Source: the human T2T-CHM13v2.0 reference genome, Homo sapiens. Taken from it: DNA of 64,000 bases. A program made the position numbers and the translations under genes. The notes under the pieces are model-generated. The model was not told where the DNA came from, searched no databases, and saw only the letters and a list, made by a program, of their open reading frames with translations. Positions 9,147 through 32,800 of this stretch are shown here, piece after piece; the first letter of the stretch is position 1, and the number at the start of each line of letters is the position of its first letter. Location of the stretch: the NCBI RefSeq assembly GCF_009914755.1, contig NC_060939.1. One strand, 5' to 3'.

Positions 9147-9206
9147 CCTTCCTTCTGCGAGTTAGAACATTAGTAGGGGCCCCTGGGAGCTGCAGGTTTC
9201 CTAATC

Positions 9207-12188: not shown

Positions 12189-12397
12189 CATGTCTAGCGT
12201 GACCCTCCTTCCTGGCAGTGACACTGTTGATGTGAACCCCAATTTCACATCTGTCATTTGTAAATAGGACCATTTTCCCTTTTCGCTCTCCCTTCCATTC
12301 ACAGGGCTTTTCATTTTCTCTGTTACTGCCTCCGTTTCAGATATTTACTCACCTTTTTCTCTCTCACTATGTCTGCCGTGGGCTCCATGAGAGTGCG

Positions 12398-15110: not shown

Positions 15111-15181
15111 CTCCGCCCTTTCCGCTGCTAGGCTGCGCCCGAGGCTATTTAAACCCACCCTGGCTGGCCTGTACTCAGATC
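15111..15181 (+). promoter_or_regulatory. Putative core promoter, copy 2
   Basis: GC box, TATTTAAA at 15146, Inr TCAGATC. Confidence 0.7.
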
Positions 15182-15302
15182 TTCGCGGAGCGGATCAGCG
15201 GCAGGAGCGTTTGGCGGACTCTGTGTGGACTTGGAGCTCACAGCGTCTTGCGACTTGGAAGCGGGTTCAGAGGACAGGACAGAACACTTGGGCAAGTGAA
15301 TC

Positions 15303-15337
<35 letters not shown>

Positions 15338-15522
15338 CATTGGTTGGTTGATTTCCATTTTCTTAAGGGGCACATACCTCACACCGCACACACACAAACA
15401 CACACACGCACACACACACGCACACGCACACGCACACACACGCACACACGCACACGCACACTCCTTCCTTCTGCGAGTTAGAACATTAGTAGGGGCCCCT
15501 GGGAGCTGCAGGTTTCCTAATC

Positions 15523-18504
15523 ATGTCTGCACCTAAGAACAGTAGGGTCTTGTCTGGCTCTTCTTATGAACGGTCCCCCAGCCCGGACTCCCCAAGGTCC
15601 ATGCGAACCTCACCCAGCTTCCCCCTCTCCCCTCTCAGAAACTCAGGCTTAAGGGGAAGCTCCTCACCAGGGATCCGGAGCTACCATTCACCATCCCCTA
15701 GGGCTTCACCACACTCACCTCTGTCATCACCAGAATCCCACAAGCTCCCATTTCCCTGTCCTCACCGTGATGGGCAATCAACGAAGCCATTGGGCTCTCC
15801 CGTGTCCTCCTCTGAGGATTCCTCAGAGTCCCCACGTTCATCAATAATATACCACATGTTCTTACTGCCATCACCCAGCAGCTCACCCCCAGCTCTCGGG
15901 GGGTCTCCTGTGTCTCCCAGCTACTCTCCAAACAACCCCAGATTTCAGCTGCGGTCAGCCCCCCACACCCAGGAATCACCTACAAACTCACGAGCCTCAC
16001 TTTGCTCCACCCCCGTGTCTTTCATCTCTTCACCCCCAGGCCTCAGGGACTCTCCTGTGGCCCCCAGTTACTCTCCAGCCATCCCCAGGTTCCTGCGGGA
16101 GTCAGCCCCATGCGCCCAGGAGTCCCCCAGAGACTCACAGGTCTCGGGAGATTATGAGCGGTCCCCCAGCCCTGACTCCTCAAGATTCATGCCTTCCTCA
16201 CCCAGCTTCTCCCTCTACCCTCCCAGAAACTCAGACCCAAGGGGCAGCTCCTCACCAGGGATGTGGAAGTCCTCTACATCATCCCGCAGGGCTTCACCAC
16301 TCTCACATCCGTCATCAACAGAACTCCACAACTTTACGTTTCCCATTCCTAACCAAGCAGGACAGTCACTCATGTCATTGTGTTCTCCCGTGACCTCCTC
16401 TGGAGATTCTTCACAGTCACCTCATTCATCAATAATATACCATATGTTCTTACTGCCATCATCCAGCAGCTCACCCCCAGCCACCCATGACTCTCCTGTC
16501 TGTCCCAGCTACTCTCCAACTACGCCCAGATTTCAGCGGGAGTCTGTACCCCACACCCCAGAAACACCTACAAACTCACAGACCTCAGTGAGATCCTCGC
16601 CAGTCTCTCTCACGTCTTCACCCCCAGCCCTTACGGACCCTCCAGTCTGTCCCAGCTACTCTCCAACCACGCCCACATTTCAGCGCGGGTCAGTTCCAGG
16701 AACCCAGGGATCACCACCAAGCCCACCGCTTTCACTGAGTTACTCCCCAGTCTCTAGCACGTCTTTATCTCCAACCCTCATGGACTCGCCTGTCTGTCCC
16801 AGCTACTCTCCAAACACGCCCACACTTCAGCGGGAGTCCGTTGCAGGCACCCAGAAGTCACCACCAAACTCACCAATTTCACCGCGTTACTCCCCAGTCT
16901 CTCTCATGTCTTCACCATCCCTCAGGGACTCTCCCGTCTGTCCCAGCTACTCTCCAACCACGCCCACATTTCAGCTGGAGTCAGTTCCAGGCACCCCGGA
17001 ATCACCACCAAACTCACCAATTTCACTCAGTTACTCCTCAGTCTCTAGCACGTCTTTATCGCCAACCCTCAGGGACTCTCCTGTGTGTCCCAGCTACTCT
17101 CCAACCAAGCCCACACTTCAGCGGGCGTCAGTTCCAGGCACCCAGGAATCACCACCAAACTCACCAATTTCACTCAATTACTCTCCAGTCTCTCTCGTGT
17201 CTTCACCAGCCCTCAGGGACTCTCCTGTCTGTCCCAGTTACTCTCCAACCACGCCCACATTTCAGCTGGAGTCAGTTCCAGGCACCCCGGAGTCACCACC
17301 AAACTCACCAGTTTCACTCAGTTACTCCCCGGTCTCTCTCACGTCTTCACCCCCAGCCCTCAGGGACTCTCCTGTGTGTCCCAGCTACTCTCCAACCATG
17401 CCCAGATTTCAGCGGGAGTCTGTTCCAGGCACCCATGTATCACCACCAAACTCAGCAGTTTCACTGAGTTACTCCCCAGTCTCTCTCATGTCTTCACCCC
17501 CACACCCCTGGGACTCTCCTGTCTGTCCCAGCTACTCTCCCACCACGCCCAGATTTCAGCGGGAGTCAGCCTCCCACACTCCGGAATCAGATACAGACTC
17601 ACAGACTTCACTGAGCTCCTCCCTGGTCTCTCTCAGGTCTTTGCCCTCATCCCACAGGGACTCTTGTGTCTCTTTCAGCTACTCTCAAAACTTCTCTAGA
17701 TTCCAGCTGGAGTCAGTTCCAGGCACCCACGATACACCACCGAACTCACGAATTTCACTGACTTACTCCCCTGTCTCCCTCATGTTCTCACCCCCAGCCC
17801 TCAGGGACTCTTCTGTCTCTCTCAGCTACTCTCCAACCATCTCCAGATTTCACCTGGAGTCAGCTTCCCACACCCTGGAATCACCTGCAAACTCACGGAC
17901 CTTACTGCAACCATCCCCCATTTCTTTCACCTCTTCATCCCCTGCCTTCAGGGACTCTCCTGGGTCTCCCAGCTTCTCTCCAGCCTTCCCCAGATTTCTG
18001 CCACAGCCAGCCCCAGGCACCCAGCACAACCCTAGACACTCACAGGCCTCACCAGACTATCTCCCTATGACCTGTACCTATACAGGGATGGCTCCCACGC
18101 ATCCCTCAGTGACCCCAAACCCATCTCCACTTACACTCAGGCACTCCCAGGGCCTGACAGCTACTCCCCGTTATTGTCCTTCAGTTCGAAGCCCTGGCCA
18201 ATCTACTAGCCCACATGACGCAGTTACCTGGCCATTTCTCCACGGTTCCCGGGAGGGCCCCACACCCAGCCGCACAAGAGCCCCTCCTGCATTCCATCCT
18301 CACACGCAGGCCTGTCCATCTACTTGCTACTGTCACACTCTTGCCAGCAGAAGAGGCCCCTGTAATGGCCGATATCACCACCCAGTCTATCCTCACCCCA
18401 CAGCTGTGCAGCGGGAAGCCCCTGCTGGCCCACGTGGCTGCCACAGCCCATGCTGGCACGACGCTCCAGCAGGTCGGCGTCCCTGCGGGCCAAACTACCG
18501 GTGA
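15523..18504 (+). CDS. Putative Pol II CTD-like Ser/Pro-rich repeat protein, copy 2 (993 aa, intact)
   Basis: Uninterrupted ATG-to-TGA ORF; atcATG has A at -3; YSPTTP/YSPVS heptads; Cys/His/Arg-rich C-terminus. Translation unproven. Confidence 0.55.
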   Translation: MSAPKNSRVLSGSSYERSPSPDSPRSMRTSPSFPLSPLRNSGLRGSSSPGIRSYHSPSPRASPHSPLSSPESHKLPFPCPHRDGQSTKPLGSPVSSSEDSSESPRSSIIYHMFLLPSPSSSPPALGGSPVSPSYSPNNPRFQLRSAPHTQESPTNSRASLCSTPVSFISSPPGLRDSPVAPSYSPAIPRFLRESAPCAQESPRDSQVSGDYERSPSPDSSRFMPSSPSFSLYPPRNSDPRGSSSPGMWKSSTSSRRASPLSHPSSTELHNFTFPIPNQAGQSLMSLCSPVTSSGDSSQSPHSSIIYHMFLLPSSSSSPPATHDSPVCPSYSPTTPRFQRESVPHTPETPTNSQTSVRSSPVSLTSSPPALTDPPVCPSYSPTTPTFQRGSVPGTQGSPPSPPLSLSYSPVSSTSLSPTLMDSPVCPSYSPNTPTLQRESVAGTQKSPPNSPISPRYSPVSLMSSPSLRDSPVCPSYSPTTPTFQLESVPGTPESPPNSPISLSYSSVSSTSLSPTLRDSPVCPSYSPTKPTLQRASVPGTQESPPNSPISLNYSPVSLVSSPALRDSPVCPSYSPTTPTFQLESVPGTPESPPNSPVSLSYSPVSLTSSPPALRDSPVCPSYSPTMPRFQRESVPGTHVSPPNSAVSLSYSPVSLMSSPPHPWDSPVCPSYSPTTPRFQRESASHTPESDTDSQTSLSSSLVSLRSLPSSHRDSCVSFSYSQNFSRFQLESVPGTHDTPPNSRISLTYSPVSLMFSPPALRDSSVSLSYSPTISRFHLESASHTLESPANSRTLLQPSPISFTSSSPAFRDSPGSPSFSPAFPRFLPQPAPGTQHNPRHSQASPDYLPMTCTYTGMAPTHPSVTPNPSPLTLRHSQGLTATPRYCPSVRSPGQSTSPHDAVTWPFLHGSREGPTPSRTRAPPAFHPHTQACPSTCYCHTLASRRGPCNGRYHHPVYPHPTAVQREAPAGPRGCHSPCWHDAPAGRRPCGPNYR

Positions 18505-21419
18505 CATGTCTAGCATGACCCTCCTTCCTGGCAGTGACACTGTTGATGTGAACCCCAATTTCACATCTGTCATTTGTAAATAGGACCATTTTCCCTTTTC
18601 GCTCTCCCTTCCATTCACAGGGCTTTTCATTCTCTCTGTTACTGCCTCCGTTTCAGATATTTACTCACCTTTTTCTCTCTCACTATGTCTGCCGTGGGCT
18701 CCATGAGAGTGCGCCACATAAGATTCCCCCATTAAAAGTCATGAATTGAGTGGCTTTTAGTATACCTGTGGTTGTGCACATTCAAATTTAATTCGCAATT
18801 CATTGTAGAACGTCTTATCACTCCCGGCCAGAGAAAAACCCTGTAGACATTAGACACTCCTCATTCTGTCTCAAACCCTCTCCCTGACCCTCAGCCCTAG
18901 GTAGCAACTACCTAGTGCGATCAATCCCATATGCATAGATTACCATATTGTGGACATTTCCTTTAAGCGGAATTGCACAATAGGTGAGCTGTTATGACTG
19001 ACATAACACGTAGCACAATATTTTCAAGATTCGTCCACATTGTAGGCTTACCCACAGGGGGAAACCATTTTTTTGGGGGCTTTTAGTAACACCGGTGTTT
19101 TCTCCTTCCTTACGTCCTTCTTTCCTTCTTTCCTTCCTTCCTTCCTGACTTCCTTCCTGACTTCCTTCTTTCCTTCCCTCCTTCCTCCTATTTCTCTCTT
19201 ACTCCTTCTGCCCTCTCTCTTTCCTATGCCTTAGGTGCATCCCACATTCTGCGTTTTTTTGGGGAAATCCTCGACAGGTGCAGGAAAATTGTGTTATTGT
19301 AACAATTTACCGTTATCTCTCTTTCACGGCTCTCCATCAGTTGTGAACATCTATTGGTTTATCCCAAGTCACTAAGCATATTTTCATTAGGTAAACCTGT
19401 TTTTCCTTCTACAGCTGTTTCTGGAGTATAGGGTCGCATACTCATAAACCCAGTGTAACTCAGAAACGCATCTAATATTCCAGTAAACCCATCATAACGT
19501 TGAAAAATCGTAAATCAAACCATCATAAGTCACGGTTTGTCCGTGGATATGGGCGTCATCAATTCCATTGTATTCAGTAATGCTGTACACCATTAACAAT
19601 GGCAGACTGATTGGGAGTGGATATTGATAGCATTATAAAAGTCAGTTATTAGAGGGATACTTCTTTAACCTGACTGAAGAACTGATCTAATGGCTTTAGT
19701 ACAGTGCATGATTATGTGCGATGTTTTGAGACAGAGTAGTACATTTGTGAATGAAATTTTATGGCTTTTTTTTCACTTAGTAGGAACCATTGTGTGTGGA
19801 AAAGTGAGAAAATGGCTTTCTGCTGTAGGGTCTGGCATTCATTGTAGATGTAAGCTTATTTTTCTGTGAGCAAATCTTATTCAATAAAATACTACTCTTT
19901 ATACTAAAAAACAAAAACAGTGGTGATGTGTGGTCATTACCCTCAGCAAACTTATCCAGGGAAAAGAAAACCAAACGCCACAACTCACTTATAATGGGAG
20001 CTGAAAAATGAGATCCCATGGACACAGGAAGGGGAACAACACACACTGGGGCCTTCCGGGAGACAGAGCGTTAAGAAAAACAGCTACTGCATGCTGGGCC
20101 TAATACCTAGGTGATGGGTTGACAGATGCAGCAAACCACCATGGCACACGTTAACCTTAATAACAAATCTGCACATCCTGCACATGTACCCCAGAACTTA
20201 GGAACGAAACGAAACAAAAGACAACGAAAAAGCAATAGCAAAACGCTAAAGGCAAAATAAAGTTTCAAACTGAGAAAGTGACAGACCAACGTCTGGTTCA
20301 AATCATGGTTCTCAACCCAGGTGCCATAAGGTCAGGATAAAGGATGTGATTACATATTGTCAATAAGACATGCAGCAAATGACCAGAATGATTATTCTCA
20401 ACATATGTGTGTCTTCTAATTCAATGGTGACGCTATCTACCGGGACATAGCATTAGATTCCAAAGGGCCGAGTCCCGCCAGACAGGCCTCCCACACTAAT
20501 AACAATGGGAAGCCCTACGTTGCTTTACCTGTGCTTCTCAGCCACTGGCTATAAATCAGGTTGCCACCACTCCCAGATTTAGTTGCATTCATTAGCTGGA
20601 AGAGCTCACAGCACGCAGGGAAACACTTACATTTGCCGTTGTATTTTAGCGGACATTGCACAAAGTTCAGAAATAAATGTGGGGCAAGGCATGTGGGGAG
20701 GGGGGCACTACCTTCCAGGAAGTGTTATCCAGAAGCTCTCTGAACCCAGTCCTTTTGGGTTTTGATGGAGACCTCATTCTATAGGCATGATGGGTTAAAC
20801 CATAAGCTATTGGTGATCAACTCCACCTGGGGCTCTCCACCCTCCCTGGAAATTGGGGTTGAGGCTTTGCCATTCTCAGTCTGACTAAAAGAATTTACCC
20901 AAACGGAACTTTAAAACAGATGAGCATAACTGGAATCTTAATTAGATGATTGGATTATTTGGAGCCACACCTTGATATTCCTAACCCGAGCACCCTCATC
21001 CAACGAATGCTCCACCCAACTGGCTCCCAAGTCTCTACGTGGTTCCAGAGCAAAAGGATGTTGATACAACGCATATCTCCACCTTTTCTTCCAAGTCTTT
21101 TCGCTTACACGGAAAGACTTCTTCAACTGCCATGCATCAGGGTCAGGGGGAGGTCTTGTTACAACACAGATCTGCGGATCTCCGGCGTTTGACAGTGGCA
21201 AGGATGCTGCTGGTGTCAAAACCACAACGTGGGAACCACAGAACCACTAGTGGGTTTTCAGTGTTTCAGTGCATACAATTCCTAATATTTCTGGCCAAGA
21301 AAACTTGTAAGTTCTTAGATTGTCCCAAAGGTGGCGCATGAAATCAAAGCAGGAGAACAGTTTCCTACGAGGTGTAGCCTGGGAAAGTTGGGGGTGACTG
21401 ATGGAAAGGAGGAGTGAAG

Positions 21420-21490
21420 CTCCGCCCTTTCCGCTGCTAGGCTGCGCCCGAGGCTATTTAAACCCACCCTGGCTGGCCTGTACTCAGATG
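21420..21490 (+). promoter_or_regulatory. Putative core promoter, copy 3
   Basis: GC box, TATTTAAA at 21455; Inr variant TCAGATG. Confidence 0.65.
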
Positions 21491-21827
21491 TTCGCGGAGC
21501 GGATCAGCGGCCGGAGCGTTTGGCGGACTCTGCGTGGACTCGGAGCTCACAGCGTCTTGCGACTTGGAAGCGGGTTCAGAGGACAGGACAGAACACTTGG
21601 GCAAGTGAATCTCTGTCTGTCTCTCTGTCTGACTGTCTGTCCCATTGGTTGGTTGATTTCCATTTTCTTAAGGGGCACATTCCTCACACCGCACACACAC
21701 AAACACACACACGCACACACACACGCACACGCACACACACGCACACGCACACACACGCACACACACTCGTTCCTTCAGCGAGTTAGAACATTAGTAGGGG
21801 CCCCTGGGAGCTGCAGGTTTCCTAAAC

Positions 21828-24800
21828 ATGTCTGCACCTAAGAACAGTAGGGTCTTGTCTGGCTCTTCTTATGAACCGTCCCCCAGCCCGTTCTCCCCAA
21901 GGTCCATGCGAGCCTCACCCAGCTTCCCCCTCTCCCCTCTCAGAAACTCAGGCTTAAGGGGAAGCTCCTCACCAGGGATCCGGAGCTACCATTCACCATC
22001 CCCTAGGGCTTCACCACACTCACCTCTGTCATCACCAGTATCCCACAATCTCCCATTTCCCTGTCCTATCCGTGATGGGCAATCAATGAAGCCATTGGGC
22101 TCTCCCGTGTCCTCCTCTGAGGATTCCTCAGAGTCCCCACGTTCATCAATAATATACCACATGTTCTTACTGCCATCACCCAGCAGCTCACCCCCAGCTC
22201 TCCGGGGGTCTCCTGGGTCTCCCAGCTACTCTCCAAACAACCCCAGATATCAGCTGGAGTCAGCCCCCCACACCCAGGAATCACCTGCAAACTCACGAGC
22301 CTCACGGTGCTCCTCCCCTATGTCTTTCATCTCTTCACCCCCAGGCCTCAGGGACTCTCCTGTGGCTCCCAGTTACTCTCAAGCCATCCCCATGTTCCTG
22401 CGGGAGTCAGCCCCATGCACTCAGGAGTCCCCCAGAGACTCACAGGTCTCGGGAGATTATGAGCGGTCCCCCAGCCCTGACTCCTCAAGATTCATGCCTT
22501 CCTCACCCAGCTTCTCCCTCTCCCCTCCCAGAAACTCAGACCCAAGGGGCAGCTTCTCACAAGGGATGTGGAAGTACTCTACATCATCCCGCAGGGCTTC
22601 ACCACTCTCACATCCGTCATTGGCAGAATTCCACAACTTTACATTTCCCTTTCCTAACCAAGCAGGACAATCACTCATGTCATTGTGTTCTCCCGTGTCC
22701 TCCTCTGGAGATTCCTCACAGTCACCCCATTCATCAATAATATACCATGTGTTCTTACTGCCATCATCCAGCAGCTCACCCCCAGCCACCAATGACTCTC
22801 CTGTCTGTCCCAGCTACTCTCCAACTATGCCCAGATTTCAGCGGGCGTCGGTATCCAACACCCCAGAAACACCTACAAACTCACAGACCTCAGTGAGATC
22901 CTCGCCAGTCTCTCTCACGTCTTCACCCCCAGGCCTTACGGACCCTCCAGTCTCTCCCAGCTACTATCCAACCACGCGCACATTTCAGCGCGGGTCAGAT
23001 CCAGGAACCCAGGGATCACCACCAAGCCCACCACTTTCACTGTGTTACTCCCCAGTCTCAAGCAGGTCTTTATCTCCAACCCTCAGGGACTCTCCTGTCT
23101 GTCCCAGCTATTCTCCAACCACGCCCACGTTTCAGCGGGAGTCCGTTGCAGGCACCCAGCAATCACCAGCAAACTCACCAATTTCACTGCGTTACTCCCC
23201 AGTCTCTCTCATGTCTTCACCAGCCCTGAGGGAGTCTCCCGTCTGTCCCAGCTACTCTCCAACCACACCCACTTTTCAGCTGGAGTCCGTTCGAGGCACC
23301 CCGGAGTCACCACCAAACTCACCAATTACACTCAATTACTCTCCAGTCTCTCTCATGTCTTCACCAGCCCTCAGGGACTCTCCCGTCTGTCCCAGCTACT
23401 ATCCAACCACCCCCAGATTTCAGCTGCAAGCAGTTCCTTGCTCCCCGGAATCAACACCAAACTCACCAATTTCACTCAATTACTCTCCAGTCTCTCTCAT
23501 GTCTTCACCAGCCCTCAGGGACTCTCCCATCTGTCCCAGCTACTCTCCAACCACGCCCAGATTTCAGCTGGAAGCAGTTCCTTGCACCCAGGAATCACCG
23601 CCAAACTCACCAATTTCACTCAATTACTCCCCAGTCTCTCTCATGTCTTCACCATCCCTCAGGGACTCTCCCGTCTGTCTCAGCTACTCTCCAACCACGC
23701 CCACATTTCAGCTGGAGTACCTTCGAGGCACCCCGGAGTCACCACCAAACTCACCAATTTCACTCAATTACTCTCCAGTCTCTCTCATGTCTTCACCAGC
23801 CCTCAGGGACTCTACTGTCTGTCCCAGCTACTCTCCAACCACGCCCAGATTTCAGCTGGAAGCAGTTCCTTGCACCCCAGAATCACCTCCAAACTCACCA
23901 ATTTCACTCAATTACTCTCTAGTCTCTCTCATGTCTTCACCAGTCCTCAGGGACCCTCCTGTCTGTCCCAGCTACTCTCCAACCACCCCCAGATTTCAGC
24001 TGCAAGCAGTTCCTTGCTCCCCGGAATCAACACCAAACTCACCAATTTCACTCAGTTACTCTCCAGTCTCTCTCATGTCTTCACCAGCCCTCAGGGTCTC
24101 TCCCATCTGTCCCAGCTACTCTCCAACCACGCCCAGATTTCAGCTGGAAGCAGTTCCTTGCACCCAGGAATCACCGCCAAACTCACCAATTTCACTCAAT
24201 TACTCCCCAGTCTCTCTCATGTCTTCACCATCCCTCAGGGACTCTCCCGTCTGTCTCAGCTACTCTCCAACCACGCCCACATTTCAGCTGGAGTACCTTC
24301 GAGGCACCCCGGAGTCACCACCAAACTCACCAATTTCACTCAATTACTCTCCAGTCTCTCTCATGTCTTCACCAGCCCTCAGGGACTCTCCCGACTGTCC
24401 CAGCTACTCTCCAACAACGTCCAGATTTCAGCTGGAAGCAGTTCCTTGCTCCCCAGAATCAACACCAAACTCACCAATTTCACTCAATTACTCTCCAGTC
24501 TCTCTCATGTCTTCACCAGCCATCAGGGACTCTCCCGTCTGTCCCAGCTACTCTCCAACCACGCCCACATGTCAGCTGGAGTCCGTTCGAGACACCCCGG
24601 AGTCACCACCAAACTCACCAATTTCACTCAATTACACTCCAGTGTCTCTCATGTCTTCACCAGCCATCAGGGACTCTCCCGTCTGTCCCAGCTACTCTCC
24701 AAAGACGCCCACATTTCAGCTGGAGTCTGTTCCAGGCACACTGGAGTCACCACCAAACTCACCAATTTCACTCAATTACTCTCCAGTCTCTCTCATGTCT

Positions 24801-26537
24801 TCACCAGCCCTCAGGGACCCTCCTGTCTGTCCCAGCTACTCTCCAACCACCCCCAGATTTCAGCTGGCGTCAGTTCCAGGCACCCCGGAGTCACCACCAA
24901 ACTCACCAGTTTCACTGAGTTACTCCCCGGTCTCTCTCATGTCTTCACCGCCAGCCCTCAGGGACTCTCCTGTGTGTCCCAGCTACTCTCCAACCACGCC
25001 CACATTTCAGCTGGAGTCAGTTCCAGGCACCCCGGAGTCACCACCAAACTCACCAATTTCACTCAATTACTCTCCAGTCTCTCTCATGTCTTCACCAGCC
25101 CTCAGGGACTCTCCTGTCTGTCCCAGCTACTCTCCAACCACGCCCAGATTTCAGCTGGAAGCAGTTCCTTGCACCCCAGAATCACCTCCAAACTCACCAA
25201 TTTCACTCAATTACTCTCTAGTCTCTCTCATGTCTTCACCAGTCCTCAGGGACCCTCCTGTCTGTCCCAGCTACTCTCCAACCACACCCAGATTTCAGTT
25301 GGAGTCAGTTCCAGGCACCGCGGAGTCACCACCAAACTCACCAGTTTCACTGAGTTACTCCCCGTTCTCTCTCATGTCTTCACCGCCAGCCCTCAGGGAC
25401 TCTCCTGTTTGTCCCCGCTACTCTCCAACCACGCCCACATTCCAGCTGGAGTCACTTGCAGGCACCCAGGAATTACCTACAAACTCAGCAGTTTCACTGA
25501 GTTACTCCCCAGTCTCTCTCATGTCTTCACCCCCAGCCCCCTGGGACTCTCCTGTCTGTCCCAGCTCCCCTCCCAACACGCCCAGATTTCAGAGGGAGTC
25601 AGCCTCCCACACTCCGGAATCACCTACAGACTCACAGACTTCACGGAGGTCCTCCCTGGTCTCTCTCAGGTCTTTGCCCTCAGCCCACAGGGACTCTTGT
25701 GTCTCTTTCAGCTACTCTCGAAACTTCTCTAGATTCCAGCTGGACTCAGTTCCAGGCACCCACGACACACCACCAAACTCACGAATTTCACTGACTTACT
25801 CCCCAGTCTCTCTCATGTTCTCACCCCCAGCCCTCAGGGACTCTTCTGTCTCTCTCAGCTACTCTCCAGCCATCTCCACATCACACCTGGGGTCAGCTTC
25901 CCACACCCAGGAATCACCTACAAACTCACGGACCTTACTGCAACCCTCCCCCATTTCTTTCACCTCTTCACCCCCTGCTTTCAGGGACTCTCCTGTGTCT
26001 CCCAGCTTCTCTCCAGCCTTCCCCAGATTTCTGCCACAGTCAGCCCCAGGCACCCAGGGTTACCCTGGACACTCACAGGCCTCACGAGACTATTTCCCAA
26101 TGACTTGTATCTATAGAGGGATGGCTCCCATACTTCCCTCAGTGACCTCAAACCCATCTCCACTTACACTCAGACACTCCCAGGGCCTGACAGCTACTCC
26201 CCGTTATTGTCCTTCAGCTCGAAGCCCTGGCCCATCTACTAGCCAACATGATGCAGCTACCTGGCCATGTCTCCACATTTCTGGGGAGGGCCCCACACCC
26301 AGCCGCAGAAGAGCCCCTCCTGCATTCCGTCCTCACACACAGGCCTGTCCATCCACTTGCTACTGTCACCCTCTTGCCAGCAGAAGAGGCCCCTGTAATG
26401 GCCGATATCACCGCCCAGTCTATCCTCACCCCACAGCTGTGCAGCGGGACCCTCCTGCTGGCCCACGTGGCTGCCACAGCCCATGCTGGCACGACGCTCC
26501 AGCATGTCGGCGTCCCTGCGGGCCACGCTACCGCTGA
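21828..26537 (+). CDS. Putative CTD-like repeat protein, copy 3 (1569 aa, intact, longest)
   Basis: Open 4.7-kb frame with ~23 core monomers; net 576 aa (12 x 48) longer than copy 2. Confidence 0.55.
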   Translation: MSAPKNSRVLSGSSYEPSPSPFSPRSMRASPSFPLSPLRNSGLRGSSSPGIRSYHSPSPRASPHSPLSSPVSHNLPFPCPIRDGQSMKPLGSPVSSSEDSSESPRSSIIYHMFLLPSPSSSPPALRGSPGSPSYSPNNPRYQLESAPHTQESPANSRASRCSSPMSFISSPPGLRDSPVAPSYSQAIPMFLRESAPCTQESPRDSQVSGDYERSPSPDSSRFMPSSPSFSLSPPRNSDPRGSFSQGMWKYSTSSRRASPLSHPSLAEFHNFTFPFPNQAGQSLMSLCSPVSSSGDSSQSPHSSIIYHVFLLPSSSSSPPATNDSPVCPSYSPTMPRFQRASVSNTPETPTNSQTSVRSSPVSLTSSPPGLTDPPVSPSYYPTTRTFQRGSDPGTQGSPPSPPLSLCYSPVSSRSLSPTLRDSPVCPSYSPTTPTFQRESVAGTQQSPANSPISLRYSPVSLMSSPALRESPVCPSYSPTTPTFQLESVRGTPESPPNSPITLNYSPVSLMSSPALRDSPVCPSYYPTTPRFQLQAVPCSPESTPNSPISLNYSPVSLMSSPALRDSPICPSYSPTTPRFQLEAVPCTQESPPNSPISLNYSPVSLMSSPSLRDSPVCLSYSPTTPTFQLEYLRGTPESPPNSPISLNYSPVSLMSSPALRDSTVCPSYSPTTPRFQLEAVPCTPESPPNSPISLNYSLVSLMSSPVLRDPPVCPSYSPTTPRFQLQAVPCSPESTPNSPISLSYSPVSLMSSPALRVSPICPSYSPTTPRFQLEAVPCTQESPPNSPISLNYSPVSLMSSPSLRDSPVCLSYSPTTPTFQLEYLRGTPESPPNSPISLNYSPVSLMSSPALRDSPDCPSYSPTTSRFQLEAVPCSPESTPNSPISLNYSPVSLMSSPAIRDSPVCPSYSPTTPTCQLESVRDTPESPPNSPISLNYTPVSLMSSPAIRDSPVCPSYSPKTPTFQLESVPGTLESPPNSPISLNYSPVSLMSSPALRDPPVCPSYSPTTPRFQLASVPGTPESPPNSPVSLSYSPVSLMSSPPALRDSPVCPSYSPTTPTFQLESVPGTPESPPNSPISLNYSPVSLMSSPALRDSPVCPSYSPTTPRFQLEAVPCTPESPPNSPISLNYSLVSLMSSPVLRDPPVCPSYSPTTPRFQLESVPGTAESPPNSPVSLSYSPFSLMSSPPALRDSPVCPRYSPTTPTFQLESLAGTQELPTNSAVSLSYSPVSLMSSPPAPWDSPVCPSSPPNTPRFQRESASHTPESPTDSQTSRRSSLVSLRSLPSAHRDSCVSFSYSRNFSRFQLDSVPGTHDTPPNSRISLTYSPVSLMFSPPALRDSSVSLSYSPAISTSHLGSASHTQESPTNSRTLLQPSPISFTSSPPAFRDSPVSPSFSPAFPRFLPQSAPGTQGYPGHSQASRDYFPMTCIYRGMAPILPSVTSNPSPLTLRHSQGLTATPRYCPSARSPGPSTSQHDAATWPCLHISGEGPTPSRRRAPPAFRPHTQACPSTCYCHPLASRRGPCNGRYHRPVYPHPTAVQRDPPAGPRGCHSPCWHDAPACRRPCGPRYR

Positions 26538-29441
26538 CATGGCTAGCATCACCCTCCTTCCTGACAGTGACACTGCTGATTTGAACCCCAGTTTCACAGC
26601 TGTCATTTGTAAATAGGACCATTTTCCCTTTTCTCTCTCCCTTCCATTCACAGGGCTTCTCATTCCCTCTGTTTCTGCCTCCGTTTCAGAGATTTACTCA
26701 CCTTTTTCTCTCTCACTATGTCTGCCGTGGTCTCCATAAGAGTGTGCCACATACAATTGCCCCATTAAAAGTCATGAATTGAGTGGATTTTAGTATACCT
26801 GTGGTTGTGCACATTCAATTTTAATTCGCAATCCATTTTAGAAGGTTTTATCACCCCCGACCAGAGAAACACCCTGTGGACATTAGTCACTCCTCATTCT
26901 GTCTCAAACCCTCTCCCTGACCCTCAGCCCTAGGTAACAACTGCATAGAGCGATCAACCCCATATGCATAGATTTCCATATTGTGGACATTTCCTATAAA
27001 CGGAATTGCACAATACGTGAGCTTTTGTGACTGACATAACACTTTTAGCACAATATTTTCAAGATTCATCCACATTGCAGCCTTACCCACAGGGGGAAAC
27101 CGCATTTTGTGGTTTCAGTAACACCGGGTGTTTTCTCCTTCCTTCCGTCTTTCCTTCCTTCCTTCCTTCCTTCCTTCCTTCCTCCCTTCCTCCCTTCCTT
27201 CCTCCCTTCCTCCCATTTCTCTCTTATTCCTTCTGCCCTCTCTCTTTCATATGCCTTAGGTGCATCCTACGTCCTGCGTCTTTTTGGGGAATCCTCGACA
27301 GGTGCTGGAAAATTGTGTTATTGTAATTATTTACCGGTATCTCTCTTTCATGGTTCTCCATCAGTTGTAAGCATCTATTGGTTTATCCCAGGTCACTAAG
27401 TATATTTTAATTAGCTACACCTGTTTTTCTTTATACACCTGTTTCTGGAGTATAGGGTCGCATACTCATAAACCCAGTGTAACTCAGAAACGCATCTAAT
27501 ATTCCAATAGACCCATCATAACGTTGAAAAATCATAAATCAAACCAACTTAAGTCACGATTTGGCGCTGGATATGGGCTCCATCAATTCCATTGTATTCA
27601 ATAATGCTGTACACCATTAACAATGGCAGACTGATTGGGCGTGGATGTGGATAACATTATAAAAATCAGTTATTAGAGGGATACTTTAACCTGACGGAAG
27701 AGCTGATCTAATGGTATTAGTACAGTGATGATTATGTGAGATGTTTTGAGACAGAGTAGTACATTTGTGTATGAGATTCTGTGGCTTTTTTCACTTAGTA
27801 GGAACCTTTGTGTGTGGAAAACTGAGAAAATTGCTTTGTGCTGTAGAGTCTGGCATTCGTTGTAGATTAAAGCTTATTTTTCTGGATGTAAATCTTATTC
27901 AATAAAATACTACTCTTTATAATAAAAAACAAAGACACTGGTGATGTGAAGTCATTATCCTCAGCAAACTAATCCAGGAACAGAAAACCAAGCGCCACAT
28001 TCTCACTTATAATGGGAGCTGAAAAATGGGATCACGTGGACACAGGAAGGGGAACAACACACACTGGGGCCTTTCGGGAGGCAGAGCGTTAAGAAAAACA
28101 GCTACCGCATGCTGGGCTTAATACCTAGGTGATGGGTTGACAGGTGCAGCAAACCACCGTGGCACACGTTTACCTTAGTAACAAATCTGCACAGCCTGCC
28201 CATATATTCCAGAACTTAGAAACGAAACGAAAGCAAAGAAAACGAGAAAGCGATAGCAAAACGCTAACGGCGAAACAGAGTTTCAAACTCAGAAAGTGAG
28301 AGACCAATGTTTGGTTCAAATCATGGTTCTCAACCCAGGTGCCATAAGGTCAGGATAAAGAATTTGATGACGTATTGTAAATAAGACATGCAGCGGAGGA
28401 CCAGAAAAATCGTTCTCAACATACGTGTGGCTTCGAGTTCAACGGTGACGCTATCTACAGTGACATAGCATTAGATTCCAAAGGGCCGAGTCCCGCAAGA
28501 CTGGCCTCCCACACTAATCATAATGGGAAGCGCTACGTTGCTTTACCTGTGCTTCTCAGCAACTGGCTATAAATCAGGTTTCCACCACTCCCAGTTTTAG
28601 TTGCATTCATTTGCTGGAAGAGCTCACAGCACGCAGGGAAACACTGACATTTCCCATTTTTTGTATTTTAGCAGATATTGCAAAAACTTCAGAAAAAACT
28701 TTTGGGCCCGGCATGTGGGGAGGGGCTCACTGCCTTCCAGGAAGTGTTATCCAGAAGCTCTCTAAACCCAGTCCTTTTGGGTTTTTATGGAGACCTCATT
28801 CTATAGGCATGATGGGTTAAACCATAGGCTATTGGTGATCAACTCAACCTGGGGCTCTCAACCCTCCCTGGAAATTGGGGTTGAGGCTTTGCCATTCTCA
28901 GTCTGAGTAAAAGAATTTACGCAAACGGAATTTTAAAACAGATTAGCATATCTGGAAACTTAACTAGATGACGGAATTATCTGGAGCCACACCTTGATAT
29001 TCCTAACCCGAGCACCCTCATCCAAAGAATGCTCCACCCAACTGGCTCCCAAGTCTCTACGGGGTTCCAGAGCAAAAGAATGTTTATACAGCGCATATCT
29101 CCACCTTTTCTTCAAAGTCTTTTCGCTTACACGGAAAGACTTCTTCAACTGCCATGCATCAGGGTCAGGGGGAGGTCTTGTTACAACACAGATCTGCGGA
29201 TCTCCGGGGTTTGATTGTGGCAAGGATGCTGCTGGTGTCAAAACCACAACGTGGGAACCACAGAACCACTAGTTGGTTTTCAGTGTTTCAGTGCATACAA
29301 TTCCTAATATATCTGGCCAAGAAAACTTGTAAGTTCTTAGATTGTCCCAAAGGTGGCGCATGAAATCAAATCAGGAGAACAGTTTCCTACGAGGTGTAGC
29401 CTGGGAACCTTGGGGGTGACTGATGGAAAGGAGGAGTGAAG

Positions 29442-29512
29442 CTCCGCCCTTTCCGCTGCGAGGCTGCGCCCGAGGCTATTTAAACCCACCCTGGCTGGCC
29501 TGTACTCAGATC
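29442..29512 (+). promoter_or_regulatory. Putative core promoter, copy 4
   Basis: GC box, TATTTAAA at 29477, Inr. Confidence 0.7.
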
Positions 29513-29827
29513 TTCGCAGAGCGGAGCAGCGGCCGGAGCGTTTGGCGGACTCTGCGTGGACTTGGAGCTCACAGCGTCTTGCGACTTGGAAGCGGATTCA
29601 GAGGACAGGACAGAACACTTGGGCAAGTGAATCTCTGTCTGTCTGTCTGTCTCATTGGTTGGTTTATTTCCATTTTCTTAAGGAGCACATACCTCACACC
29701 ACACACACACAAACACACACACACACACGCACGCACTCACGCACACACACACGCACACACACACACTAATTCATTCTGCGGGTTAGGAAATTAGTAGGGG
29801 TCTCTGGGAGCTGCAGGTTTCCTAATC

Positions 29828-32800
29828 ATGTCTGCACCTAAGAACACTAGGGTCTTGTCCGGCTCTTCTTATGAACGGTCCCCCAGCCCGGACTCCCCAA
29901 GATCCATGCTAGCCTCACCCAGCTTCTCCCTCTCCCCTCTCAGAAACTCAGACTTAAGAGGAAGCTCCTCACCAGGGATCCGGAGCTACCATTCACCATC
30001 CCCTAGGGCTTCACCACACTCACCTCTGTCATCACCAGTATCCCACAATCTCCCATTTCCCTGTCCTATCCGTGATGGGCAATCCATGAAGCCATTGGGC
30101 TCTCCGGTGTCCTCCTCTGAGGATTCTACAGAGTCACCACGTTCATCAGTAATATACCACATGTTCCTACTGCCATCACCCAGCAGCTCACCCCCAGCTC
30201 TCGGGGAGTCTCCTGGGTCTCCCAGCTACTCTCCAAACAACCCCAGATTTCAGCTGGAGTCAGCCCCCCACACCCAGGAATCACCTGCAAACTCACGAGC
30301 CTCACGGTGCTCCTCCCCTATGTCTTTCATCTCTTCACCCCCAGGCCTCAGGGACTCTCCTGTGGCTCCCAGTTACTCTCAAGCCATCCCCATGTTCCTG
30401 CGGGAGTCAGCCCCATGCACTCAGGAGTCCCCCAGAGACTCACAGGTCTCGGGAGAATATGAGCGGTCCCCCAGCCCTGACTCCTCAAGATTCATGCCTG
30501 CCTCACCCAGCATCTACCTCTCCCCTCCCAGGAACTCAGACCCAAGGGGCAGCTCCTCACAAGGGATGTGGAAGTACTCTACATCATCCCGCAGGGCTTC
30601 ACCACTCTCACATCCGTCATCGGCAGAATTCCACAACTTTACATTTCCCTTTCCTAACCAAGCAGGACAATCACTCATGTCATTGTGTTCTCCCGTGTCC
30701 TCCTCTGGAGATTCCTCACAGTCACCCCATTCATCAATAATATACCATGTGTTCTTACTGCCATCATCCAGCAGCTCACCCCCAGCCACCAATGACTCTC
30801 CTGTCTGTCCCAGCTACTCTCCAACTACGCCCAGATTTCAGCGGGCGTCGGTATCCAACACCCCAGAAACACCTACAAACTCACAGACCTCAGTGAGATC
30901 CTCGCCAGTCTCTCTCACGTCTTCACCCCCAGGCCTTACGGACCCTCCAGTCTCTCCCAGCTACTATCCAACCACGCGCACATTTCAGCGCGGGTCAGAT
31001 CCAGGAACCCAGGGATCACCACCAAGCCCACCACTTTCACTGTGTTACTCCCCAGTCTCAAGCACGTCTTTATCTCCAACCCTCAGGGACTCTCCTGTCT
31101 GTCCCAGCTATTCTCCAACCACGCCCACGTTTCAGCGGGAGTCCGTTGCAGGCACCCAGCAATCACCAGCAAACTCACCAATTTCACTCAATTACTCTCC
31201 AGTCTCTCTCATGTCTTCACCAGCCCTCAGGGACTCTCCCATCTGTCCCAGCTACTCTCCAACCACGCCCAGATTTCAGCTGGAAGCAGTTCCTTGCACC
31301 CAGGAATCACCACCAAACTCACCAATTTCACTCAATTACTTCCCAGTCTCTCTCATGTCTTCACCATCCCTCAGGGACTCTCCCGTCTGTCTCAGCTACT
31401 CTCCAACCACGCCCACATTTCAGCTGGAGTACCTTCGAGGCACCCCGGAGTCACCACCAAACTCACCAATTTCACTCAATTACTCTCCAGTCTCTCTCAT
31501 GTCTTCACCAGCCCTCAGGGACTCTCCCGACTGTCCCAGCTACTCTCCAACAACGCCCAGATTTCAGCTGGAAGCAGTTCCTTGCTCCCCGGAATCAACA
31601 CCAAACTCACCAATTTCACTCAATTACTCTCCAGTCTCTCTCATGTCTTCACCAGCCATCAGGGACTCTCCCGTCTGTCCCAGCTACTCTCCAACCACGC
31701 CCACATTTCAGCTGGAGTCCGTTCGAGGCACCCCGGAGTCACCACCAAACTCACCAATTTCACTCAATTACACTCCAGTCTCTCTCATGTCTTCACCAGC
31801 CGTCAGGGACTCTCCCGTCTGTCCCAGCTACTCTCCAAAGACGCCCACATTTCAGCTGGAGTCTGTTCCAGGCACCCTGGAGTCACCACCAAACTCACCA
31901 ATTTCACTCAATTACACTCCAGTCTCTCTCATGTCTTCACCAGCCCTCAGGGACTCTACTGTCTGTCCCAGCTACTCTCCAACCACGCCCAGATTTCAGC
32001 TGGAAGCAGTTCCTTGCACCCCAGAATCACCACCAAACTCACCAATTTCACTCAATTACTCTCTAGTCTCTCTCATGTCTTCACCAGCCCTCAGGGACCC
32101 TCCTGTCTGTCCCAGCTACTCTCCAACCACCCCCAGATTTCAGCTGGAGTCAGTTCCAGGCACCCCGGAGTCACCACCAAACTCACCAGTTTCACTGAGT
32201 TACTCCCCGGTCTCTCTCATGTCTTCACCGCCAGCCCTCAGGGACTCTCCTGTGTGTCCCAGCTACTCTCCAACCACGCCCACATTTCAGCTGGAGTCAG
32301 TTCCAGGCACCCCGGAGTCACCACCAAACTCACCAATTTCACTCAATTACTCTCCAGTCTCTCTCATGTCTTCACCAGCCCTCAGGGACTCTCCTGTCTG
32401 TCCCAGCTACTCTCCAACCACGCCCAGATTTCAGCTGGAAGCAGTTCCTTGCACCCCAGAATCACCTCCAAACTCACCAATTTCACTCAATTACTCTCTA
32501 GTCTCTCTCATGTCTTCACCAGTCCTCAGGGACCCTCCTGTCTGTCCCAGCTACTCTCCAACCACACCCAGATTTCAGTTGGAGTCAGTTCCAGGCACCG
32601 CGGAGTCACCACCAAACTCACCAGTTTCACTGAGTTACTCCCCGTTCTCTCTCATGTCTTCACCGCCAGCCCTCAGGGACTCTCCTGTTTGTCCCCGCTA
32701 CTCTCCAACCACGCCCACATTCCAGCTGGAGTCACTTGCAGGCACCCAGGAATTACCTACAAACTCAGCAGTTTCACTGAGTTACTCCCCAGTCTCTCTC

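What the first reader, a model, noticed from the sequence alone, without database searches (positions are those of the whole stretch)
22794..26094. The 147-bp satellite monomer is exactly 7 x 21 bp: a heptad-of-heptads in CTD register
Seen: the 49-aa monomer parses as YSPTTPR|FQLESVP|GTPESPP|NSPISLN|YSPVSLM|SSPPALR|DSPVCPS. Six of seven heptads keep S/T2-P3, five keep S/T5, three keep P6, and three start with an aromatic residue. The 144-bp variant lacks one codon (SSPALR). Inference: the satellite is a higher-order repeat of a 21-bp CTD-like coding unit, possibly from a captured POLR2A CTD segment, so a satellite born from protein-coding sequence. 147 bp also equals nucleosome core DNA length, which may be coincidence.
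Basis: partly seen in the sequence, partly recalled or inferred. Interest (0 to 1): 0.85.

Follow-up and report, generated by a model that had tools for sequence, protein, structure and literature searches.

The report
ACRO1 satellite: amplified coding heptad repeat
The 147-bp repeat is the known human ACRO1 satellite, whose resemblance to the RNA polymerase II tail is already published; here it looks like the amplified 49-codon repeat of an old, unannotated Ser/Pro-rich gene rather than a captured piece of POLR2A.

Summary
It carries a strong 21-bp period (0 of 5000 shuffles reach it).

It is the known ACRO1 satellite inside the ~6-kb ACRO/ACRE macrosatellite; this window holds 8 units. Boots et al. 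2020 (PMC7714431) already printed both the CTD-like heptad translation and the idea of descent from Pol II CTD mRNA.

New here:
- The 21-bp period exists only at codon positions 1 and 2 of one frame, not at position 3. It is therefore a protein-level signal.
- That frame is a 1000-1579-codon stop-free frame that runs through unique flanks and begins with an ATG. It is open in 6 of 8 window units and in 93 of 114 genomic copies.
- Distant protein homologues exist in marmoset, colobus, whales and unnamed records. They share the same N- and C-termini, and one has a 49-residue period.
- The match to POLR2A shows no synonymous-site signal, and more distant relatives are less CTD-like.
- Human copies evolve at pN/pS of about 1.

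Verdict: a coding origin is supported, POLR2A capture is not, and the core finding is already known.

The parts
22794..26058 (+). ACRO1 tandem array of the finding (144/147-bp monomers, 22.5 copies)
   Evidence: Tandem Repeats Finder. The name ACRO1 rests on descriptors in papers (147-bp unit, 6-kb higher-order unit, chromosomal spread), not on a Dfam match.
22815..26006 (+). 21 full monomers, all in the phase of the long frame (8 of 147 bp, 13 of 144 bp), each of 7 heptads or 7 minus one codon
   Evidence: nhmmer parse and translations
21798..26537 (+). Stop-free frame of 1579 codons plus its stop codon. It spans a unique N-terminal part, a short ACRO1 block, a second unique part, the long array and a unique C-terminal part.
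21828..21830 (+). First ATG of the frame (MSAPKNSRV...). It is present in all 8 units and is the start of database homologues P0001, P0002, P0096 and P0097.
22126..22459 (+). Short block of about 2.3 degenerate ACRO1 monomers inside the N-terminal part
   Evidence: It matches the '256 bp' short array described by Boots et al..
26097..26534 (+). Non-repetitive Cys/His/Pro-rich C-terminal 146 codons (...CPSTCYCHPLASRRGPCNGR...), conserved in distant homologues
   Evidence: tblastn with P0037: 41% identity over 25695-26534, E 1e-47. Alignment and BLASTP. No Pfam family reaches its cut-off.
21455..21462 (+). TATA-like TATTTAAA, 373 bp before the ATG, found at the same relative place in all 8 units
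   Evidence: A motif match only, with no evidence of use.
26764..26769 (+). First AATAAA/ATTAAA hexamer after the stop codon (about 227 bp downstream); a homologous one is present in all 8 units
   Evidence: A motif match only.
20947..20957 (-). TAATCCAATCA, a match to the DUX4 binding consensus (motif recalled from memory), present in 3 of 8 units
   Evidence: 3 matches in the window against 0.14 expected
9177..62348 (+). Eight tandem macrosatellite units (frame starts 9177, 15493, 21798, 29798, 36919, 43629, 50339, 57622), each with an ACRO1 array of 10.5 to 22.5 copies

Best explanation
The array is the known ACRO1 satellite, and its 147-bp monomer is a 49-codon protein repeat made of seven Ser-Pro heptads. 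It belongs to the large exon-like reading frame of an old, fast-evolving, unannotated Ser/Pro-rich gene family found in primates, whales and other unnamed records.

The heptad period is a property of the encoded protein. It was shaped while the frame was translated, so only codon positions 1 and 2 carry it.

In primates the whole gene-like unit became a 6-8 kb macrosatellite on acrocentric short arms. The unit comprises a TATA-like box, an ATG, an N-terminal part, the repeats, a C-terminal part and a polyA hexamer, plus L1/LTR spacer. Inside each unit the 147/144-bp copy number drifts by unequal exchange (10.5 to 22.5 copies in this window).

The likeness to the Pol II CTD is real at protein level. 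It is best read as convergence on a [YF]-S-P-x-S-[PL]-x heptad, or as a relationship too old to trace. It is not a capture of POLR2A in primates.

Shown: the period, its codon phase, the frame, the homologues, the absence of synonymous-site signal and the near-neutral substitution pattern among human copies. Inferred: past translation, the order of events and amplification by unequal exchange.
For: Period and phase:
- The 21-bp period is real and is confined to codon positions 1 and 2. Observed sums over three lags are 81/69/36 against 37.5/51.0/37.5 expected, z 8.9/3.9/-0.3.
- The same holds in 61 real 147-bp monomers: 71.7/63.4/40.2 against baseline 32.5/49.1/38.3.

The frame:
- It is open for 1579 codons here, and from the same start to the same stop in 6 of 8 window units.
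- 93 of 114 genomic matches to the C-terminal domain lie in open frames of 892 aa or more with no stop inside the match (counted by hand from the table).

Homologues in the same frame:
- Marmoset P0002: 71% identity over 319 aa at the N-terminus with 1 gap event, and 75% over 130 aa at the C-terminus with no gap.
- Red colobus P0007 (83%).
- Unnamed P0037, P0043 and P0095, and whale P0086 and P0093.
- BLASTP with composition correction: P0096 against P0037, E 2e-36; P0037 against P0093, E 6e-6.
- In P0043 a 49-residue period is the top lag, and lag 7 is among the top lags in all members tested.

Indels:
- In the 8 window units the unique parts of the frame hold 121 distinct substitutions and 0 indels.
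- The adjacent spacer holds 297 substitutions and 18 indels, 8 of them outside simple repeats. P(0) is 0.0007 or 0.038 accordingly.

Nonsense variants:
- No nonsense variant is shared by two or more of 22 copies: 0 of 134 shared variants, about 5 expected. The other two frames have 2 each.

Against POLR2A capture.
Against: - Among human copies the frame evolves as neutral DNA would. pN/pS is 1.04 in the N-terminal part and 1.16 in the C-terminal part, and variants are evenly spread over codon positions (87/88/79 and 33/38/37).
- Among monomers pN/pS is 0.79, which is not significant (59/60/73).
- Observed nonsense variants are not clearly depleted: 8 of 362 against 13.5 expected.
- The coding strand is C-rich and G-poor, and a second forward frame is open for 978 codons. 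Openness inside the array alone therefore proves little.
- 14 of the 22 copies used for searches were picked from a protein-match list, which favours unbroken copies.
- Human-marmoset and human-colobus amino-acid identities are about what neutral drift would give (my estimate from recalled genome-wide divergences).
- No DNA of non-human homologues was available, so no dN/dS between species could be computed.
- Most database homologues come from unnamed records or automatic gene models.
- RefSeq annotates no gene here in CHM13 (hub table).
- Boots et al. found no stable ACRO1 transcripts in HeLa cells, and sense-strand ACRO1 inserts of 1.1-1.4 kb nearly abolished reporter RNA.
Confidence: 0.68

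Rival explanations
1. Capture of POLR2A. A stretch of seven CTD heptads from POLR2A mRNA or DNA was copied into a new place in early primates and then amplified as a satellite.
For: - The protein-level likeness is strong and in register. BLASTP of the 993-aa frame against the human CTD gives 232 bits and 41% identity over 377 aa without composition correction, and 38.9 bits, E 3.7e-7, with it.
- Shuffles give 94 +/- 8 (global) and 108 +/- 8 (within 7-residue windows); 0 of 200 of each kind reach the observed score.
- 22 of 49 residues equal YSPTSPS repeated. Boots et al. report 23 of 49.
- Two RPB1 CTDs (P0088, P0089) are the only non-family proteins among the 29 of 89 representative-library hits that I inspected, at E 1.9e-4 and 4.3e-4.
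- Sources label P0002, P0007 and P0093 as RPB1 or RPB1-like. These are automatic names.
Against: - There is no synonymous-site signal. Third positions match at 21 of 49 against 21.8 +/- 2.5. The best total is 85 against 81.7 +/- 2.0, reached by 14 of 200 shuffles.
- Positions 1 and 2 (35 and 29 of 49) are more alike than position 3. That is the reverse of neutral decay from a recent copy.
- PF05001 scores 12.9 bits, below its 20.3 cut-off, on a monomer, and nothing on the whole frame.
- None of the 17 genome-wide PF05001 matches at E up to 10 lies in an ACRO1 array.
- The unique N- and C-terminal parts have no RPB1 domains.
- The family is present in whales, so it is not a primate novelty.
- Relatives are less CTD-like than the human frame. 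Z against shuffles: human 17.1, primate short form P0096 9.5, marmoset 7.1, more distant relatives (whales and unnamed records) 3.3-9.3.
Confidence: 0.07
2. Plain non-coding satellite. A 21-bp DNA unit was duplicated seven times, diverged, and the 147-bp unit was then amplified. The long open frame is a by-product of C-rich, G-poor composition and recent amplification.
For: - pN/pS among human copies is about 1.
- Two forward frames are open over most of the array.
- Only about 3-4% of random substitutions give stops in any forward frame.
- Published work treats ACRO as a satellite or composite repeat without genes.
Against: - Neutral divergence of 21-bp copies cannot leave positions 1 and 2 periodic and position 3 at chance.
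- The frame continues through 996 bp and 438 bp of unique sequence, with a conserved ATG and stop.
- Proteins of 30-48% identity in the same frame exist in other mammals, with conserved non-repetitive N- and C-terminal motifs.
- Indels are absent from the unique parts but present in the spacer.
Confidence: 0.07
3. RNA-level explanation (Boots et al. 2020). ACRO1 is kept because its sense RNA is a Pol II-binding aptamer that stalls its own transcription. [quoted passage not shown]
For: From passages of PMC7714431 read:
- 1029 sense against 1 antisense SELEX mappings on ACRO1.
- Inserts of 1.1-1.4 kb nearly abolish reporter RNA.
- The reverse complement relieves the effect.
Against: - An RNA-binding constraint gives no reason for a period that skips every third base.
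- It does not explain the conserved unique N- and C-terminal protein parts, the ATG, or the non-primate protein homologues.
- It can be true in addition to a coding origin.
Confidence: 0.1

Closest known systems
ACRO1 satellite within the ACRO / 'ACRE' 6-kb composite macrosatellite (Warburton et al. 2008, PMC2588610; Boots et al. 2020, PMC7714431; acrocentric-origin preprint PMC12767296)
   Same: - 147-bp unit.
- A long and a short ACRO1 block inside a unit of about 6 kb with L1/LTR spacer.
- Copies on chromosomes 13, 14, 15, 21, 22, 3 and 4, plus dispersed copies on 1, 2, 19 and 20.
- The in-silico translation is about half identical to the CTD heptad.
   Different: Nothing in the sequence differs; this is that element. 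What differs is the reading. The papers call it primate-specific and gene-free and suggest a recent origin from CTD mRNA. Here I find a long frame with unique termini, protein homologues in whales and other records, and no DNA trace of POLR2A.
C-terminal heptad repeat domain of RNA polymerase II subunit RPB1 (Pfam PF05001; human exon read from chr17)
   Same: - A seven-residue period.
- Ser-Pro at positions 2-3 in 6 of 7 heptads.
- Ser/Thr at position 5 in 5 of 7.
- Tyr/Phe at position 1 in 3 of 7.
- The best-kept stretch, SPSYSPTTPR, resembles two CTD heptads.
   Different: - The heptad consensus is YSPVSLR, not YSPTSPS.
- It scores below the Pfam cut-off.
- It is not attached to polymerase domains.
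- Heptads are grouped in a 49-residue super-repeat.
- It shows no synonymous-site similarity to POLR2A.
Reading-frame-bearing macrosatellites such as D4Z4 with DUX4 (recalled from general knowledge)
   Same: - Tandem units of several kb, each with a complete long frame and promoter-like and polyA-like motifs.
- Located on acrocentric short arms and pericentromeres.
[quoted passage not shown]
   Different: - No evidence of translation.
- No amino-acid-level constraint among human copies.
- The frame contains its own internal satellite whose copy number varies between neighbouring units.
Automatic gene models named 'DNA-directed RNA polymerase II subunit RPB1(-like)' in marmoset, red colobus and Rice's whale (P0002, P0007, P0093)
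   Same: They share the start (MSA...), the YHMF...LRDSP...SYSP...PRF anchor and Ser/Pro repeats. In marmoset the C-terminus is shared too.
   Different: Whale proteins have a 20-residue rather than a 49-residue period and different C-termini. The names are labels from annotation pipelines, not tested functions.

Membership tests
ACRO1 satellite / ACRO (ACRE) composite repeat | Tandem monomer of 147 bp | tested here: met
   Period 144/147 in 8 arrays. 61 of 121 full monomers are 147 bp and 59 are 144 bp.
ACRO1 satellite / ACRO (ACRE) composite repeat | A long (1.3-2.4 kb) and a short (about 256 bp) ACRO1 block inside a higher-order unit of about 6 kb | tested here: met
   Units of 6.3-8.0 kb. 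Long arrays of 1.5-3.3 kb. Short block at 22126-22459 and at its homologous places in the units listed. The array of the finding is longer than the published range.
ACRO1 satellite / ACRO (ACRE) composite repeat | Copies on acrocentric short arms and pericentromeric chromosomes 3 and 4 | tested here: met
   Genome searches list chr13, 14, 15, 21, 22, 3 and 4, plus dispersed copies on chr1, 2, 19 and 20.
ACRO1 satellite / ACRO (ACRE) composite repeat | Sequence match to the Dfam/Repbase ACRO1 consensus and to L1PA10, MER21B and L1MB8 in the spacer | not testable with these tools
   No repeat library is on hand. The identification rests on the descriptors above and on the matching CTD-like translation (22 of 49 here against 23 of 49 in print).
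RPB1 C-terminal repeat (Pfam PF05001) | Score at or above the curated cut-off of 20.3 bits | tested here: not met
   12.9 bits, E 0.15, on one monomer. Nothing on three monomers or on the 1579-aa frame. 0 of 17 genome-wide matches lie in ACRO1.
RPB1 C-terminal repeat (Pfam PF05001) | Seven-residue period with Y1 S2 P3 T4 S5 P6 S7 | tested here: inconclusive
   Period and register are met. The consensus is YSPVSLR, with 22 of 49 residues equal to the CTD consensus.
RPB1 C-terminal repeat (Pfam PF05001) | Descent from POLR2A, visible at synonymous sites | tested here: not met
   Third-position matches are 21 of 49 against 21.8 +/- 2.5 in synonymous-codon shuffles.
Reading-frame-bearing macrosatellite (D4Z4/DUX4 kind) | Each tandem unit holds a complete long reading frame | tested here: met
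   6 of 8 window units. 93 of 114 genomic C-terminal matches lie in frames of 892 aa or more.
Reading-frame-bearing macrosatellite (D4Z4/DUX4 kind) | Purifying selection on the frame | tested here: inconclusive
   pN/pS is 1.04 and 1.16, so there is none at amino-acid level. Against that, 0 indels where 3.3-7.3 are expected, and 0 of 134 shared variants are nonsense where about 5 are expected.
Reading-frame-bearing macrosatellite (D4Z4/DUX4 kind) | Transcript and protein product | not testable with these tools
   Only literature passages on ACRO1 RNA in early embryos and after DUX4 expression. Nothing is known about protein.

The most novel reading that the evidence does not exclude
The ACRO macrosatellite is not a gene-free satellite but a several-hundred-copy gene family. 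Each unit would encode a disordered protein of about 1000 residues made of CTD-like Ser-Pro heptads. It would be switched on by DUX4 at the 4-cell stage and act as a decoy or partner for CTD kinases, phosphatases or Pol II condensates. It would also descend from a gene that sits beside the DUXC homeobox gene in other mammals: a gray-whale gene model joins the homologous frame to the DUX4-like C-terminal exon.
Probability: 0.15. Interest if true: 0.85.

Novelty: already known. Interest (0 to 1): 0.45.

Why it matters
ACRO is described as the repeat class most strongly and universally enriched on great-ape acrocentric chromosomes apart from the rDNA (PMC12767296, passage). It is reported to be transcribed at the 4-cell stage and after DUX4 expression.

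It does not count as a discovery.

What this check adds is a correction and a lead.
- Correction: the element is not demonstrably primate-specific at protein level, and there is no DNA evidence that it came from POLR2A.
- Lead: its period carries the signature of past translation, and it sits in a long frame with conserved unique ends.

That makes two questions directly testable with T2T-mapped ribosome profiling and proteomics. Is a 'satellite' on the acrocentric arms a decayed gene or a live one? Does early-embryo ACRO RNA make protein?

Tried and rejected
- Pfam on the whole 1579-aa frame and on its unique parts: no family at its cut-off.
- Relic of a DUXC/DUX4 gene inside the human unit: tblastn of the whale DUX4-like protein P0094 against 17000-31000 gave nothing better than E 0.62. 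Pfam on 22 of the 56 spacer frames of 35 aa or more (those of 50 aa or more) gave no homeodomain or other family. The idea was dropped for lack of support; it was not disproved.
- Parent gene elsewhere in the human genome: a search with the distant homologue P0037 returned only ACRO-type copies. The closest were the dispersed, mostly broken copies on chr2, 19, 13, 15, 20 and 1. Only 114 of 1521 candidates were scored, so a parent gene is not excluded.
- Third-position excess among monomers: 59/60/73, pN/pS 0.79, not significant.
- Fold of the C-terminal domain: the structure tool did not accept jobs, so the question of whether that domain folds stays open.
- One literature search was badly framed and returned nothing relevant.
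Only shuffles and family relatives were used as controls.

Full report
WHAT IS THERE

Tandem Repeats Finder finds one array at 22794-26058: period 144, 22.5 copies, 84% matches. The same repeat forms eight arrays across the window. Each lies in a tandem unit of 6.3-8.0 kb.

I parsed monomers with an nhmmer model built from the window. The window holds 121 full monomers: 61 of 147 bp, 59 of 144 bp and 1 of 143 bp. The array of the finding holds 21 full monomers, 8 of 147 bp and 13 of 144 bp. One copy (25566-25712) was dropped because its match began at model position 5.

The 144-bp form lacks one Pro codon.

IS THE PERIOD REAL?

Yes.
- Circular autocorrelation of the consensus peaks at lag 21 (67 of 147). 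Lags 63 and 42 rank second and joint third.
- The three lags sum to 186, against 124.9 +/- 9.1 (dinucleotide shuffles) and 126.1 +/- 8.6 (codon shuffles). 0 of 5000 shuffles of each kind reach it.
- At protein level, lags 7+14+21 give 42 identities against 17.1 +/- 3.3 (0 of 20000). All eight [ST]P dipeptides sit at heptad position 2 or 5.
- In the raw array, lag 21 is the strongest lag below the monomer length.

WHAT KIND OF PERIOD IS IT?

This is the most telling result. Split by codon position of the open frame, the periodic matches over the three lags are 81, 69 and 36. Shuffles that keep each position's composition give 37.5, 51.0 and 37.5, so z is 8.9, 3.9 and -0.3.

In 61 real 147-bp monomers the pattern is the same: 71.7/63.4/40.2 against baseline 32.5/49.1/38.3.

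Third positions of the Ser and Pro codons use all four bases. A DNA repeat that decays neutrally loses similarity evenly, so this one lost it only where the amino acid is not at stake. The heptad pattern was therefore shaped or kept at protein level. It follows that the DNA period gives no separate evidence that a 21-bp unit was ever duplicated.

THE FRAME

The phase of the heptads is a stop-free frame of 1579 codons, 21798-26534. It does not stop at the array.
- It runs through 996 bp of mostly unique sequence upstream. That stretch contains a short block of about 2.3 degenerate monomers at 22126-22459 and an internal duplication of a unique segment.
- It runs through 438 bp of unique sequence downstream.
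- An ATG lies at 21828.

The same frame, from the same start to the same stop, is open in 6 of 8 window units. One unit has a single nonsense codon and one has a frameshift.

Each unit also carries three motifs at fixed places. These are motif matches only.
- TATTTAAA, 373 bp before the ATG.
- An AATAAA/ATTAAA hexamer about 227 bp after the stop.
- In 3 of 8 units, a match to the DUX4 binding consensus, which I recalled from memory.

Genome-wide, a search with the distant homologue P0037 scored 114 copies of the C-terminal domain. 93 of them lie in open frames of 892 aa or more with no stop in the match (hand count). The copies closest to the outgroup are the dispersed ones on chr2, 19, 13, 15, 20 and 1, and most of those are broken.

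RELATIVES

A word-indexed search found a marmoset protein of 832 aa (P0002). It has the same start and a related C-terminus. Its source labels it RPB1.

The exhaustive search of 1.84 billion representatives gave 89 hits at E up to 0.001. I read 29 of them across.
- 27 are family members, fragments or mixed-frame translations. Some are probably human contamination of other assemblies, a problem described for ACRO1 by PMC6581058 (passage).
- 2 are genuine RPB1 tails, P0088 and P0089, at E 1.9e-4 and 4.3e-4. Pfam confirms them.

Distant members match the window only in the phase of the long frame.
- P0037 (355 aa): 42% identity to the N-terminal part, E 2e-31, and 41% to the C-terminal part, E 1e-47.
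- P0043 (575 aa): 34% identity, E 4e-70.
- P0086 (598 aa, gray whale): 31% identity, E 2e-41.

With composition correction, P0096 against P0037 gives E 2e-36 and P0037 against the Rice's whale protein P0093 gives E 6e-6.

Shared non-repetitive anchors are MSA... at the start..IYHMF.L....SP..LRDSP..PSYSP..PRF.., and ..HTQGLTAT...CPSTCYCH.LA.RR..NGR.. near the end.

P0043 has 49 residues as its top period, and lag 7 is among the top lags in every member tested. The whale proteins have amplified a 20-residue unit instead.

So the 49-codon unit and the heptad spacing look older than the primate satellite. At protein level the element is not primate-specific, contrary to the DNA-based statement in PMC7714431 (section 7 read).

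IS THE FRAME UNDER SELECTION NOW?

Mostly not, at the level of amino acids. I compared 22 copies: the 8 of the window plus 14 fetched from chr2, 3, 4, 13, 14, 15, 21 and 22. The 14 were picked from a protein-match list, which favours unbroken copies.
- pN/pS is 1.04 in the N-terminal part and 1.16 in the C-terminal part.
- Variants are evenly spread over codon positions.
- Among monomers pN/pS is 0.79, which is not significant.
- Nonsense variants number 8 of 362, against 13.5 expected.

Two hints point the other way.
- None of the 134 variants shared by two or more copies is nonsense, where about 5 are expected. The two other frames have 2 each.
- In the unbiased set of 8 window units, the unique parts of the frame hold 121 substitutions and no indel. 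The adjacent spacer has the same substitution density and holds 297 substitutions and 18 indels, 8 of them outside simple repeats. P(0) is 0.0007 or 0.038.

Human and marmoset differ at 25-29% of residues but show only 1 gap event in 449 aligned residues.

My reading is a frame that was translated for a long time and may still be kept open, with almost no constraint on individual residues in the human lineage.

THE POLR2A QUESTION

I located the human CTD exon in the same genome with Pfam PF05001 (chr17) and compared it with the monomer.

Protein level: the likeness is real.
- 22 of 49 residues equal the CTD consensus.
- BLASTP gives 232 bits, against 94 +/- 8 for global shuffles and 108 +/- 8 for shuffles within 7-residue windows (0 of 200 each).
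- With composition correction the score is 38.9 bits, E 3.7e-7.

DNA level: the best in-frame alignment is 85 of 147, split 35/29/21 over codon positions.
- Shuffling synonymous codons in both sequences gives 81.7 +/- 2.0 (14 of 200 reach 85).
- The same shuffles give 21.8 +/- 2.5 third-position matches (140 of 200 reach 21).
- So nothing beyond the protein likeness is shared.

Family membership and relatives:
- The Pfam repeat model stays below its cut-off, at 12.9 against 20.3 bits.
- None of its 17 genome-wide matches lies in ACRO1.
- Relatives are less CTD-like than the human frame. Z against shuffles: human 17.1, primate short form P0096 9.5, marmoset 7.1, more distant relatives (whales and unnamed records) 3.3-9.3.

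A recent capture followed by neutral decay is contradicted: position 3 is less alike than positions 1 and 2. An ancient relationship cannot be excluded, but nothing positive supports it.

WHAT IS KNOWN

The element fits the printed descriptions of ACRO1.
- A 147-bp 'Acro' satellite in blocks of about 1.6 kb inside a 6-kb unit on 4p11, 3p and all acrocentric short arms, classed among arrays without genes (PMC2588610, passages).
- 'ACREs' with long and 256-bp ACRO1 arrays (PMC7714431, section 7).
- A 6-kb composite of ACRO1, L1PA10, MER21B and L1MB8 (PMC12767296, passages).

I could not match it to Dfam, so the name rests on these descriptors.

Boots et al. state in the abstract and in sections 7 and 12 that the translated consensus shares 23 of 49 residues with the CTD and reflects the heptapeptide repeat. 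They add that ACRO1 may derive from CTD mRNA as 'a very recent acquisition'.

Searches for ACRO1 with 'open reading frame', 'heptad' and 'translated' found no paper that describes the long frame, its unique ends or non-primate homologues. The library lacks most subscription journals, and I could not see supplements.

Expression, from literature passages only:
- ACRO1 RNA peaks at the 4-cell stage (PMC6545021).
- It is low in germ cells and rises in the early embryo (PMC5832720).
- It is induced by DUX4 (PMC8990217 and PMC12776069).
- Against easy expression, sense ACRO1 RNA binds Pol II, and inserts of 1.1-1.4 kb nearly abolished reporter RNA in HeLa cells.

VERDICT

- A coding origin of the satellite is supported.
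- Capture from POLR2A is not supported.
- The core finding is already known.
- The added value is the codon-phase result, the long frame with conserved ends, the wider family, and a negative synonymous-site test.
- Whether the frame is still translated is open; I put that at roughly one in six.

Noticed in passing
P0086, P0093, P0094; window 17000-31000: The gray-whale gene model P0086 joins the homologue of this frame to the last ~90 residues of a whale 'double homeobox protein 4-like' protein (P0094; 94% identity over 15% of the query). The Rice's whale model P0093 ends in another piece of the same protein. In whales the Ser/Pro-rich frame therefore seems to lie just upstream of DUXC-type terminal exons. 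In human, DUX4 is reported to switch on ACRO1 RNA. No DUX remnant was found in the human unit.
   Followed up: partly
19500-27100: The unit that holds the finding is a hybrid. Its upstream spacer is 99% identical to the two units before it and about 92% to those after. Its downstream part is 99.5-99.7% identical to the units after it and about 92% to those before. It also has the longest array (22.5 copies), so it probably marks an unequal exchange between two unit subfamilies.
   Followed up: partly
23397-24404; 23829-23972 and 25128-25271: Inside the array, three successive monomers recur 576 bp (four monomers) later at 97%, 100% and 97% identity, and monomer 23829 recurs unchanged at 25128. 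Edge monomers are the most diverged, at 65-80%. Other units show 291-, 435- and 438-bp higher-order periods.
   Followed up: partly
20947-20957, 14638-14648, 8330-8340 (minus strand): Exact matches to the DUX4 binding consensus (motif recalled), about 870 bp before the ATG in the first three units only. There are 3 matches against 0.14 expected. The five later units have no match even with one mismatch.
   Followed up: partly
22796-25732 (+), second forward frame: A second frame of the array is open for 978 codons (LSQLLSNHAQISAG...). Many database 'proteins' (for example P0020, P0039, P0049, P0056, P0062) are mixed-frame translations of ACRO1. They are probably spurious proteins from contaminating or frameshifted copies.
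   Followed up: no
21685-21766: A (CA)n/(CACG)n microsatellite lies between the TATA-like box and the ATG, inside the putative 5' leader. Boots et al. list CA-type simple repeats as the strongest Pol II-binding RNAs.
   Followed up: no
G000 chr16:30912683-30912931 (minus) and chr1:215870425-215870460 (minus): These are the only matches to the Pfam CTD-repeat model outside POLR2A in the genome-wide scan. The chr16 one lies in a 536-aa open frame. Neither was identified.
   Followed up: no
G000 chr2:132.72 Mb, chr2:161.74 Mb, chr19:47.23 and 47.28 Mb, chr20:29.99 Mb, chr1:127.77 Mb, chr13:9.35 Mb, chr15:4.71 Mb: Dispersed single copies of the C-terminal domain are the closest human matches to the distant homologue P0037, and most carry stops or short frames. 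They look like older, decayed copies and could help to date the amplification.
   Followed up: no
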